This document shows, piece after piece, positions 7,664 through 7,785 of a DNA stretch of 10,537 nucleotides; positions within the stretch are counted from its first letter, which is position 1, and each line of letters begins with the position of its first letter. A model generated the notes under the pieces. That model worked only from the letters and a program-made list of their open reading frames with translations. It was not told the origin of the DNA and ran no database searches. The stretch is from a virus (Duplodnaviria > Heunggongvirae > Uroviricota > Caudoviricetes). The stretch lies in IMG/VR virus record IMGVR_UViG_2671180608_000012, one strand, 5' to 3'. The position numbers and the translations under genes were made by a program.

Positions 7664-7711
7664 CTTATCTGTAATATTATTATCTAATGTTTTATCTAAT
7701 AACTTATCTAA
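7664..7711. repeat. Four direct repeats TTATCT(A/G)(A/T)A at 12-15 bp spacing in an AT-rich stretch
   Basis: Copies begin at 7664, 7680, 7692 and 7704. Lies between the palindromic iteron array and the acidic protein gene. Confidence 0.5.
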
Positions 7712-7723
7712 ACTCTAACACGG

Positions 7724-7785
7724 GTGACATTTTGTCACTACCCCCATGACATTTTGTCACTGGTAGTGGTGTCATTTTGTCTTAC
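7724..7785. repeat. Three 15-bp palindromic sites (GTGACA-TTT-TGTCAC) at 22-23 bp centre spacing: operator or iteron array
   Basis: Site 1 at 7724-7738 (perfect palindrome), site 2 at 7746-7760 (one mismatch), site 3 at ~7767-7785 (degenerate). The array overlaps the last codons of the winged-helix gene. Confidence 0.6.

What the first reader, a model, noticed from the sequence alone, without database searches (positions are those of the whole stretch)
7664..7785. Operator- or origin-like architecture: three palindromic sites at ~2-turn spacing next to an AT-rich block of four direct repeats
Three copies of the 15-bp palindrome GTGACA-TTT-TGTCAC have centres 22-23 bp apart (7731, 7753, ~7776). 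They are immediately followed by four TTATCT(A/G)(A/T)A direct repeats at ~12 bp spacing (7664-7711). The array sits at the 3' end of a winged-helix gene and upstream of the acidic protein gene. Spaced palindromes at about two helical turns recall tripartite phage operators; iterons plus an AT-rich repeat block recall a replication origin. Either way this is the likely control or origin hub of the element.
Basis: partly seen in the sequence, partly recalled or inferred. Interest (0 to 1): 0.65.

Follow-up and report, generated by a model that had tools for sequence, protein, structure and literature searches.

The report
Replication origin inside broken initiator gene
The spaced palindromes and the AT-rich block look like a phage-lambda-style replication origin lying inside the element's own initiator gene; in this Shigella sonnei-type copy the loss of one repeat has split that gene in two, so it is a decayed example of a textbook design.

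Summary
There are three GTGACA-AAA-TGTCAC palindromes, centred at 7731, 7753 and 7776. Beside them is an 85% A+T block with four TTATCT repeats.

In E. coli relatives (about 93% identical) the 129-aa winged-helix ORF and the acidic ORF are one 306-322-aa gene, and it contains four palindromes. This window lost one 23-bp unit and gained 7 bp, which shifts the frame. The out-of-phase array then supplies the stop codons, TAG and TGA.

The intact layout matches phage lambda's O gene and ori-lambda almost base for base. Sites start at +345/+368/+391/+413 nt here and at +350/+370/+394/+417 in lambda, followed by an AT-rich tract. The repeats use all three reading frames, so the constraint acts on DNA, not peptide.

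Sister lineages of the same island keep the architecture but use two other palindromes, each paired with a different winged-helix domain. Unrelated phage initiator genes with the HTH_36 domain carry the same TGACAAAATGTCA core in the same position. PHROG profiles call the protein a replication initiator, "O-like".

The origin reading is supported. The operator reading is not. This is a new, crippled member of a known kind, and nothing has been tested experimentally.

The parts
7769..7783 (-). Iteron 1 in gene order: AAGACAAAATGACAC, a degenerate palindrome
   Evidence: 3 mismatches. It is conserved in all 11 relatives aligned. It sits in the codon phase where a consensus GTGACA arm would create an in-frame TGA, which explains the AAGACA arm.
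7761..7768 (-). Spacer holding the junction of a 23-bp deletion, one whole iteron unit lost relative to intact 4-iteron relatives
   Evidence: Alignments. The exact breakpoint is ambiguous because the units repeat.
7746..7760 (-). Iteron 2: GTGACAAAATGTCAT, read as S-D-K-M-S
7724..7738 (-). Iteron 3: GTGACAAAATGTCAC, a perfect 15-bp palindrome. It corresponds to iteron 4 of intact relatives. Here it lies in the TGA phase.
   Evidence: The 129-aa ORF ends TAG (7738-7740), directly followed by the iteron's own TGA (7735-7737).
7712..7718 (-). 7-bp insertion (about ACTCTAA on the + strand) that is absent from intact relatives
   Evidence: It is identical in CP023645.1 (L130). HE616528.1 (L133) has a 4-bp variant at the same spot.
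7665..7712 (-). AT-rich block, the presumed DNA-unwinding element. It holds four (T/C)AGATAA repeats at 12-15 bp spacing and encodes LDKLLDKTLDNNI(T/I)DK in the C-terminal frame.
   Evidence: 85% A+T and the G+C minimum of 0.16. Equivalent AT-rich tracts (0.72-0.80 A+T) follow the iterons in types 2 and 3 and in lambda.
7738..8127 (-). 5' part of the initiator gene: a 129-aa ORF holding the winged-helix (HTH_36) DNA-binding domain, cut short by the frameshift
   Evidence: Pfam HTH_36 at 31.2 bits against a cut-off of 25. PHROGs 'replication initiation protein' and 'O-like', 1e-11 to 1e-6. AlphaFold2 on the intact homologue predicts a confident winged-helix fold at residues 11-106. The exact protein is named in Shigella sonnei and occurs on at least 1000 contigs.
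7238..7714 (-). 3' remnant of the initiator gene in another frame: the ori-encoded linker plus the acidic C-terminal domain. The mechanical ORF call is 7238-7612.
   Evidence: Frame-2 translation aligns with residues of about 145-322 of the intact 322-aa E. coli proteins.
6948..7238 (-). 96-aa gene whose start overlaps the initiator's stop (TAATG). It occupies the position that P holds in lambda. Function unknown.
   Evidence: No hit in Pfam, PHROGs, NCBIfam or PADLOC.

Best explanation
The region is the replication origin of a roughly 10-kb integrative island, built like ori-lambda and embedded in the island's own initiator gene.

In the intact form found in E. coli relatives, the gene encodes three parts: an N-terminal winged-helix (HTH_36) domain, a disordered linker whose DNA is the origin, and an acidic C-terminal domain.

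Inferred mechanism, by analogy with lambda O:
- Dimers of the winged-helix domain bind the four 15-bp palindromes.
- The 22-23-bp spacing (about two helical turns) puts the dimers on one face of the helix.
- The resulting nucleoprotein complex strains and opens the adjacent 85% A+T tract on supercoiled DNA.
- The C-terminal domain recruits a helicase or helicase loader from the host or a helper phage. No such gene was recognised in the island.

In this window, of Shigella sonnei type, one 23-bp iteron unit has been deleted and 7 bp inserted. Because the unit is not a multiple of three, the reading frame breaks. The next palindrome falls in the phase where its GTGACA arm reads TGA, and the gene ends there.

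This copy therefore has a three-iteron origin and at most a 129-aa DNA-binding stub without the recruiting domain. It is most likely replication-dead, unless an intact type-1 initiator is supplied in trans.

Shown here: the anatomy, the frameshift, the family conservation, the co-variation of site and domain, and the initiator-family matches.

Inferred only: binding, unwinding, helicase recruitment, and loss of function.
For: 1. One gene, not two. E. coli relatives annotate a single 306-322-aa CDS across window 7238-8127.

2. The constraint is on DNA. The four sites start at +345/+368/+391/+413 nt and occupy codon phases 0, 2, 1 and 2. They read RQNDT, SDKMS, VTKCH and SDKMS. The one site in the TGA phase is the degenerate one.

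3. Same coordinates as lambda. The iteron cores located here in lambda O start at +350/+370/+394/+417, spaced 20/24/23 bp, followed by 72% A+T. They coincide with the iterons annotated in the lambda record. PMC5043065 describes ori-lambda as lying within O: four inverted 19-bp repeats bound by O dimers, next to a 40-bp A+T-rich region that opens.

4. Co-variation. Two sister lineages of the same island (37-39% amino-acid identity) keep four sites at 22-23 bp followed by 76-78% A+T, but with other palindromes: TTAACTCAsTGAGTTAA and TAACCAGAATTTGGTTA. In strain Ec-U3 the type-3 N-terminus, iterons and AT block are fused to a type-1 C-terminus, with the junction just after the AT block.

5. Independent recurrence. 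Twenty-nine IMG/VR contigs carry at least two adjacent perfect TGACAAAATGTCA sites. At least 16 arrays lie inside ORFs of 150 aa or more, with 2-6 copies, mostly 21-23 bp apart, usually with AT-rich sequence downstream. Eight of twelve ORFs tested carry HTH_36 just upstream of the array. One is flanked by SSB and a DnaC-like loader.

6. Possible specificity residue. A recognition-helix arginine (R68 here) is present in 9 of 9 TGACA-type proteins and is A, E or D in the other types.

7. Initiator family matches. PHROGs give 'replication initiation protein' and 'O-like' at 1e-11 to 1e-6. Four of these families (678, 391, 18020, 345) are also hit by lambda O.

8. Disordered linker. The ori-encoded peptide lies within residues 107-244, which AlphaFold2 predicts at pLDDT below 50.

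9. Copy-number variation typical of iteron arrays: 3, 4 or 7 copies among relatives. Stx phages have 4 or 6 (PMC7466680).

10. The frameshift is inherited, not a read error. The exact 129-aa product occurs in 2126 index blocks and is named in S. sonnei. CP023645.1 has the identical array and junction sequence over the stretch read.
Against: - There is no experimental evidence for binding, unwinding or replication. The island has not been shown to excise or replicate.
- Direct profile comparison with lambda O is not significant (hhalign probability 0.1%). Pfam Phage_rep_O is not hit. Homology to O rests only on shared PHROG profiles.
- Foldseek's best PDB matches are generic ArsR/MarR-type regulators, so fold alone cannot separate an initiator from a repressor.
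- No helicase, loader or primase gene is recognisable in the island.
- The TTATCT repeats have a 12-bp, in-frame period and encode LDKx. Their repetition, unlike that of the palindromes, could be shaped at the peptide level.
- This copy is broken, so whatever the module does in relatives it may do nothing here.
Confidence: 0.85

Rival explanations
1. Operator array. The 129-aa winged-helix protein is a transcriptional repressor, and the three palindromes are cooperative operators controlling the downstream acidic-protein operon, like lambda OR1-3.
For: Palindromes suit dimeric HTH repressors. Sub-threshold Pfam hits go to MarR, GntR and Crp HTH families. The top Foldseek hits are ArsR/MarR regulators. 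In this window the sites do lie between two ORFs.
Against: No sigma-70-like promoter lies within or near the array; the only site in 7000-8600 is at 8358-8386. In intact relatives the sites are about 345-430 nt inside a 966-nt coding sequence. No copy lies upstream of the gene. Profile matches are to replication initiators. The AT-rich tract and its conservation across phage rep genes next to SSB and a DnaC-like loader fit an origin.
Confidence: 0.05
2. Pure coding repeats. The repeats are a low-complexity peptide linker of the protein and have no function as DNA.
For: The whole region is translated in intact relatives. The TTATCT repeats have an in-frame 12-bp period (LDKL/LDKT/LDNN). The segment is predicted disordered.
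Against: The 22/23-bp palindromic units are read in three different frames and give unrelated peptides: RQNDT, SDKMS and VTKCH. The same DNA core recurs in genes whose proteins are 21-28% identical and again in mixed frames. The arms are inverted repeats, a DNA-level property.
Confidence: 0.03
3. Another cis site for the same protein: a partition centromere, a packaging (pac) site or an incompatibility/handcuffing locus rather than the initiation site.
For: Arrays of palindromes bound by winged-helix or HTH dimers also occur at plasmid centromeres. One phage contig with the same array (L024) carries ParA- and ParB-like genes just downstream.
Against: No ParA/ParB or terminase genes lie next to the array in the island. 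In L024 the par genes are separate ORFs downstream of the rep gene. The adjacent AT-rich tract and the initiator-family matches point to initiation.
Confidence: 0.04
4. Domesticated decoy. The truncated 129-aa DNA-binding stub plus the three chromosomal iterons are kept in S. sonnei because they titrate or block the initiator or origin of incoming type-1 elements, giving replication interference.
For: The broken allele is fixed and very common, on at least 1000 contigs. Three-iteron broken alleles occur in at least three contexts. Ectopic ori-lambda copies can arrest lambda growth (PMC4488673, abstract).
Against: S. sonnei is clonal and rich in pseudogenes and IS elements. The same island here also carries an IS insertion and a chimeric structure, so simple decay explains the data. 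No selection test was possible.
Confidence: 0.03

Closest known systems
Phage lambda O protein and ori-lambda (and lambdoid relatives such as Stx phages 933W and P27)
   Same: The origin lies inside the initiator gene, between an N-terminal DNA-binding domain and a C-terminal recruiting domain. There are four inverted-repeat iterons with A-rich centres, starting at +350 to +417 nt in lambda and +345 to +413 here, spaced 20-24 bp, followed by an AT-rich tract (PMC5043065). Iteron number varies among relatives (PMC7466680). Both proteins hit PHROG 'O-like' families 678, 391, 18020 and 345. From my own knowledge of lambdoid phages, the N-terminal domain and iterons are also exchanged as one specificity module, as seen here.
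   Different: There is no direct significant sequence similarity to O and no Pfam Phage_rep_O hit. The palindromes are 15 bp rather than 19 bp and have an unrelated sequence. No P-like or DnaC-like gene follows. The C-terminal domain is a long acidic, mostly disordered region. The host element is a roughly 10-kb island with a large serine recombinase, not a lambdoid phage.
HTH_36-type phage replication initiators with intragenic iterons. Uncharacterised examples: Bacteroides phage B40-8 gp23, Flavobacterium phage FCV-1 gp53, and IMG/VR contigs L024, L037, L054, L146-L148 and L152.
   Same: An HTH_36 winged helix is followed at once, within the same ORF, by 3-6 palindromic sites at 20-24 bp and then an AT-rich tract. 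Many carry the identical core TGACAAAATGTCA and share the recognition-helix arginine.
   Different: Their C-terminal domains differ: DUF6017 in one, and matches to PHROG 'DnaD-like helicase loader' and 'primosomal protein' families in another. The contigs range from 29 to 56% G+C, which suggests other phyla as hosts. N-terminal identity to the window protein is only 21-28%. None appears to have been studied; the motif is absent from the searchable literature.
RepA_N plasmid initiators of Gram-positive bacteria (for example pSK41 RepA)
   Same: From my own knowledge, the origin repeats lie within the rep coding sequence and the N-terminal domain is a winged helix related to DnaD. The RepA N-terminal structures 4pql and 4pt7 appear among the Foldseek hits. 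Weak DnaD_N matches are seen.
   Different: There is no RepA_N Pfam match. The Foldseek scores are no better than for unrelated regulators.
Iteron plasmids (F RepE, R6K pi, pPS10 RepA) and SaPI/PICI origins
   Same: All have arrays of initiator-binding repeats next to an AT-rich unwinding element (PMC5043065).
   Different: From my own knowledge, plasmid iterons are direct repeats bound by monomers, lie outside rep, and usually come with DnaA boxes. Here the sites are palindromes inside the gene and no DnaA box is nearby. Also from my own knowledge, SaPI and PICI origins lie 3' of a primase-helicase rep gene; no such gene is present here.

Membership tests
ori-lambda-type origin/initiator module | The origin lies inside the initiator's coding sequence, between the DNA-binding and recruiting domains | tested here: met
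   Intact relatives have one 306-322-aa CDS spanning the array. In the window itself the gene is frameshifted at the array.
ori-lambda-type origin/initiator module | About four inverted-repeat iterons at roughly two-turn spacing | tested here: met
   Four sites at 23/23/22 bp in relatives and three at 23/22 bp in the window (gene order); lambda has 20/24/23 bp.
ori-lambda-type origin/initiator module | An AT-rich tract immediately distal to the iterons | tested here: met
   85% A+T at 7665-7712 and a G+C minimum of 0.16. The next 50 nt are 0.80 A+T in the intact type-1 relative against 0.72 in lambda.
ori-lambda-type origin/initiator module | The initiator is a sequence homologue of lambda O (Pfam Phage_rep_O) | tested here: not met
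   No Phage_rep_O hit at E <= 1. hhalign against lambda O gives probability 0.1%.
ori-lambda-type origin/initiator module | Remote relatedness to O-like initiators through profile families | tested here: inconclusive
   The window protein hits PHROGs 678, 391, 18020 and 345 ('replication initiation O-like') at 3e-8 to 1.5e-4. Lambda O hits the same four. The link is transitive, not direct.
ori-lambda-type origin/initiator module | A P-like or DnaC-like helicase-loader gene directly downstream | tested here: not met
   The downstream 96-aa ORF and the other island ORFs have no family matches.
ori-lambda-type origin/initiator module | The initiator binds the iterons and opens the AT-rich tract, and the fragment supports replication | not testable with these tools
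   This needs EMSA or footprinting, P1/KMnO4 probing, and a replication assay.
Pfam HTH_36 (PF13730) proteins | A score above the curated gathering threshold | tested here: met
   31.2 bits against a cut-off of 25, at residues 22-79.
Tripartite phage operator (OR/OL type) | Sites overlap a promoter in an intergenic control region | tested here: not met
   No promoter-like site lies near 7600-7800. The sites are intragenic in intact relatives.
Iteron-plasmid origin (Rep_3/RepA type) | Direct, non-palindromic iterons outside rep, with DnaA boxes | tested here: not met
   The sites are palindromes inside the gene. The only DnaA-box consensus matches are at 4057 and 9513.
RepA_N plasmid replicons | A RepA_N domain match | tested here: not met
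   No RepA_N hit in Pfam. There is only generic winged-helix fold similarity to 4pql and 4pt7.

The most novel reading that the evidence does not exclude
The island is an undescribed family of phage satellite or mobilisable element. Its gene order is a methyltransferase or small resolvase, the O-like initiator with its internal origin, small ORFs, a tape-measure protein, a Dit-like protein and a large serine recombinase. On this reading, slippage in iteron number (22/23-bp units, never a multiple of three) works as a built-in on/off switch for the initiator: a change of one unit both alters the origin and frameshifts the initiator. The retained 129-aa stub plus three iterons in S. sonnei would then act as a replication-interference module against incoming elements that use the same TGACAAAATGTCA code.
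Probability: 0.08. Interest if true: 0.6.

Novelty: new member of a known kind. Interest (0 to 1): 0.35.

Why it matters
- **Annotation.** The finding turns "helix-turn-helix domain-containing protein" plus "hypothetical protein" into a specific, testable call: a split replication-initiator gene with its origin inside.
- **A replicon for an unstudied island.** The roughly 10-kb island is widespread in E. coli, Shigella, Citrobacter and Salmonella. It sits at yecE and beside wrbA, which I recall from my own knowledge as Stx-phage attachment sites. The analysis identifies its likely replicon and three incompatibility-like specificity types.
- **A small general rule.** HTH_36 initiators across distant phages carry their binding sites immediately 3' of the domain's coding region, often with the same TGACAAAATGTCA core. 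This allows origins to be called in many unannotated phage genomes, for example Bacteroides phage B40-8 gp23 and Flavobacterium phage FCV-1 gp53.
- **Overlapping constraints made visible.** A palindrome that contains TGA must degenerate in one codon phase. Any single-unit change in copy number destroys the gene.

Tried and rejected
- Megablast of 7200-8200 against the phage and plasmid collections found nothing.
- Protein-seeded scans of IMG/VR with the window protein, P0124 and P0123 found no relatives.
- tblastn of the intact protein against cultured phages gave one weak hit, to a Parageobacillus phage.
- A PDB sequence search gave nothing meaningful. Foldseek gave only generic winged-helix matches.
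- hhalign against lambda O was not significant.
- A literature search for the motif returned only unrelated primer sequences. A search for the island (satellite, tape measure, serine recombinase, yecE) found nothing relevant.
- DnaA boxes are absent near the array. By eye, there are no GATC sites in 7600-7800.
- NCBIfam and PADLOC gave nothing useful for the initiator or the small ORFs.
- I considered programmed frameshifting as a way to rejoin the two ORFs and rejected it. The break coincides with a unit deletion absent from about 93%-identical intact genes, and two stop codons follow at once.
- I considered a sequencing error and rejected it, because the same allele is present in thousands of assemblies.

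Full report
**What is in the sequence**

Nearly all genes of the window run on the - strand. On that strand the finding reads, in order, as follows.
- A 129-aa ORF (8127 down to 7738).
- Three copies of a 15-bp palindrome with consensus GTGACAAAATGTCAC, at 7783-7769 (3 mismatches), 7760-7746 (1 mismatch) and 7738-7724 (perfect). Spacing is 23 and 22 bp.
- An AT-rich block (7712-7665, 85% A+T) containing four (T/C)AGATAA repeats.
- An acidic 124-aa ORF (7612-7238).

Allowing up to 3 mismatches, the window gives five matches: the three array sites, with the perfect one counted on both strands, plus one unrelated site at 315-329. Shuffles give 0.41 +/- 0.60, and none of 200 reaches five. The AT block holds the lowest G+C of the surrounding kilobase, 0.16.

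**The two flanking ORFs are one broken gene**

Megablast finds nothing in the phage or plasmid collections. It finds 148 E. coli chromosomes with relatives, up to about 93% identical. In those, a single CDS of 306-322 aa, annotated "helix-turn-helix domain-containing protein", spans the whole of window 7238-8127.

The alignment shows that intact genes carry four palindromes. The window lacks one 23-bp unit and has 7 extra bases just before the AT block. The net change is -16 nt, which shifts the frame.

On the - strand the N-terminal frame now reads ...AGT GAC AAA ATG TCA TGG GGG TAG TGA. The ORF is therefore ended by a spacer TAG and then by the TGA inside the next palindrome. The C-terminal part continues in another frame as ...SLDKLLDKTLDNNITDK... 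and on into the acidic domain.

The break is inherited, not a sequencing error. The exact 129-aa product is indexed in 2126 blocks of public assemblies, is named in Shigella sonnei, and occurs on at least 1000 contigs. CP023645.1 has the identical array and junction sequence over the stretch read. HE616528.1 differs only by 4 instead of 7 inserted bases. The window is therefore S. sonnei or a very close relative.

**The repeats are constrained as DNA, not as peptide**

In the intact gene the four sites start at +345, +368, +391 and +413 nt. They fall in codon phases 0, 2, 1 and 2 and are translated as RQNDT, SDKMS, VTKCH and SDKMS.

The arm GTGACA contains TGA, so one phase is forbidden to a consensus site. 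The site that falls in that phase (site 1) is exactly the degenerate one, AAGACA...

A 7-copy allele in E. coli 00-3076 keeps the frame (+69 nt). It acquires in-frame TGA codons from a TGACAC arm variant and is annotated as a pseudogene.

Among the eleven sequences aligned, nine E. coli strains carry four copies, eight in genes annotated as intact and one (strain 00-3076) carrying seven in an annotated pseudogene. Three copies are found in the window and in Escherichia sp. MOD1-EC7003, and also in CP027675.1, which was read separately. All three of those are broken at the same place.

The TTATCT/AGATAA repeats are different. Their 12-bp period is in frame (LDKL/LDKT/LDNN), so peptide-level shaping cannot be excluded for them.

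**What the protein is**

The 129-aa product passes the Pfam HTH_36 threshold (31.2 bits against 25) and has weak DnaD_N and Cdc6 winged-helix hits.

Against PHROGs, its best matches are "replication initiation protein", "replication initiation O-like" and "DnaD-like helicase loader", at 1e-11 to 1e-6.

I fetched lambda gene O and scanned it against the same library. Lambda O and the window protein share four "O-like" families: 678, 391, 18020 and 345. A direct profile comparison with O is not significant, and Pfam Phage_rep_O is not hit. The protein is thus an O-like initiator by architecture and by transitive profile evidence, not a demonstrable O orthologue.

AlphaFold2 on an intact homologue predicts a confident winged helix (residues 11-106, pLDDT 70-88). 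Residues 107-244, which include the segment encoded by the iterons and the AT block, are predicted disordered. One C-terminal helix (256-276) follows. Foldseek finds only generic winged-helix proteins, among them the staphylococcal RepA N-terminal domains 4pql and 4pt7.

**Comparison with ori-lambda**

The GenBank lambda record annotates four iterons inside gene O. Locating their cores with the same script gives starts at +350, +370, +394 and +417 nt of O, spaced 20/24/23 bp, followed by a tract that is 72% A+T. The intact gene here has sites at +345, +368, +391 and +413, spaced 23/23/22 bp, followed by 80% A+T.

Both kinds of site are inverted repeats around an A-rich centre: TCCCTC-AAAAC-GAGGGA in lambda and GTGACA-AAA-TGTCAC here.

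PMC5043065 summarises the lambda mechanism. The origin lies within O, dimers of O bind four inverted 19-bp repeats, and the neighbouring 40-bp A+T-rich region opens on supercoiled DNA. PMC7466680 documents lambdoid Stx phages with four or six iterons.

**Comparative tests of the origin reading**

- *Sister lineages.* A search of 1.8 billion cluster representatives shows a narrow family. Two sister lineages, 37-39% identical, sit in the same kind of island in E. coli, Citrobacter, Salmonella and Shigella. At the same gene position they carry sites at 22-23 bp followed by 76-78% A+T, but the palindromes differ.
  - Type 2 has TTAACTCA(C/G)TGAGTTAA, with four sites.
  - Type 3 has TAACCAGAATTTGGTTA. 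The script scored three sites within its mismatch limit; a degenerate fourth upstream is visible by eye.
- *Module exchange.* The Ec-U3 gene combines a type-3 N-terminus, iterons and AT block with a type-1 C-terminal half. The junction lies just after the AT block. The blastn hit pattern across E. coli shows the same mosaicism. The DNA-binding domain and its sites therefore travel together.
- *Independent recurrence in phages.*
  - Twenty-nine IMG/VR contigs contain at least two adjacent perfect TGACAAAATGTCA sites.
  - At least 16 of these arrays lie within ORFs of 150 aa or more, with 2-6 copies, mostly 21-23 bp apart, and usually with AT-rich sequence downstream.
  - Eight of twelve ORFs tested have HTH_36 immediately upstream of the array.
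  - In L054 the gene sits between an SSB gene and a DnaC-like loader.
  - These contigs range from 29% to 56% G+C, which suggests widely different hosts.
- *A candidate specificity residue.* All nine TGACA-type proteins share a recognition-helix arginine (R68 here). The type-2 and type-3 proteins have A, E or D at that position.
- *Cultured phages.* Bacteroides phage B40-8 gp23 has four copies of GGTGAAAATCACC at 20/22/23 bp. Flavobacterium phage FCV-1 gp53 has three copies of GTGCAGAAACTG at 22/24 bp. Both sit in the same position of genes annotated "hypothetical".

**The operator alternative**

A consensus scan finds no sigma-70-like promoter near the array on either strand. The only site in 7000-8600 is at 8386-8358, upstream of the gene. 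No further copy of the palindrome exists in the window apart from a chance-level 3-mismatch site at 315-329. There are no DnaA boxes nearby. With the sites about 350-430 nt inside a coding sequence in intact relatives, an operator role is unlikely. Some autoregulatory side-effect of binding cannot be excluded.

**Most likely mechanism, and the state of this copy**

The steps below are inferred by analogy with lambda O.
1. Winged-helix dimers occupy the palindromes on one face of the helix.
2. The complex distorts the DNA and opens the AT block.
3. The acidic C-terminal domain recruits a helicase or loader from the host or from a helper phage. This domain has two conserved LDxFDD-type motifs.

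No loader gene is recognisable in the island.

In this window the origin has three sites and the initiator lacks its C-terminal domain. The island also carries an IS3-family insertion and is chimeric. The simplest reading is a dead replicon in a decaying island. The origin could still respond to an intact type-1 initiator supplied in trans, and the stub could compete for sites. Both possibilities are untested.

**Verdict**

The origin interpretation is supported and the operator interpretation is not. The gene context has to be corrected: one frameshifted initiator gene, not two genes. This is a new, degenerate member of a well-known kind, the intragenic iteron origin of the ori-lambda type. 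Three details were not found in the searchable literature: the three specificity types, the rule linking TGA phase to iteron degeneracy, and the wide sharing of the TGACAAAATGTCA core among HTH_36 initiators.

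Noticed in passing
whole window; L001, L002, L004-L008, L129-L134: The host element is an uncharacterised island of about 10-11 kb. Its conserved gene order is: Dam-like methyltransferase and/or small resolvase, the initiator, two 96-aa ORFs, small ORFs, a roughly 235-aa ORF, a 69-aa ORF, a tape-measure protein (PF20155), a Dit-like protein (PF21821) and a large serine recombinase. It is inserted in yecE (DUF72), beside wrbA/yccJ, or between msyB and a Lip_A_acyltrans gene (probably lpxL), downstream of mdoGH. 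It has tail genes but no capsid, terminase or lysis genes, and its initiator protein has no relatives in IMG/VR. It could be a satellite or a prophage remnant family.
   Followed up: partly
window 3178-4334 (IS), 4386-4997 vs 1679-2389, 5427-5873 vs 2905-3150: An IS3-family element (100-aa orfA and 272-aa orfB) separates two paralogous gene sets. The 203-aa and 236-aa proteins are only 25% identical. By eye, the 148-aa and 81-aa ORFs share a C-terminal motif. The island in this window therefore looks like a chimera of two island lineages joined at the IS.
   Followed up: partly
L001 iteron 4 (about 12595-12609); L129 10390-10404: In E. coli MARGA_3 and in CP027675.1, the centre of the last palindrome is flipped from AAAA to TTTT while both arms are kept. 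This changes SDKMS to SDILS. It suggests hairpin-mediated inversion, or that orientation does not matter for a symmetric dimer.
   Followed up: partly
L140 (E. coli 00-3076), about 19-1026: This allele has 7 iterons, three extra 23-bp units totalling 69 nt, so it stays in frame. The TGACAC arm variant introduces in-frame TGA codons, and the gene is annotated as a pseudogene with an internal stop.
   Followed up: yes
L024 5712-5810; L037 9370-9470; L054 6400-6510; L146, L147, L148, L152: The same TGACAAAATGTCA core forms 3-6-copy arrays inside HTH_36 rep genes of viral contigs with 29-56% G+C. A conserved recognition-helix arginine tracks with this site type. This looks like a widely shared initiator/iteron code that I could not find described.
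   Followed up: partly
L170 1176-1270 (Bacteroides phage B40-8 gp23); L171 1179-1240 (Flavobacterium phage FCV-1 gp53): These genes are annotated as hypothetical proteins in cultured phages. They show the same layout: an N-terminal winged helix, then 3-4 palindromic repeats at 20-24 bp (GGTGAAAATCACC and GTGCAGAAACTG). They can probably be re-annotated as initiator genes with internal origins.
   Followed up: partly
window 7238-7480 (C-terminal domain); alignments A2, A3: The acidic C-terminal domain carries two conserved short motifs, (E/M)(L/M)DPFDD and LDxFDDS(E/D)DD, and a conserved tail K(I/V)KxxxY(F/Y)AGGG. The motifs loosely recall acidic SSB-tail-type interaction peptides. Their partner is unknown.
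   Followed up: no
window 8491-9153: The Dam-family (PF05869) methyltransferase has a C-terminal resolvase-type HTH_7 domain at residues 175-215. This is an unusual fusion, sitting directly upstream of the initiator gene.
   Followed up: no
window 3123-3134, 9382-9408, 9832-9874: There are three masked N runs of 12, 27 and 43 bases. The last one lies inside the 224-aa resolvase/invertase gene (9805-10479).
   Followed up: no
L024 6375-8936: The rep gene with the TGACAAAATGTCA array is followed by ParA-like and ParB-like genes. This suggests that the contig is a phage-plasmid.
   Followed up: no
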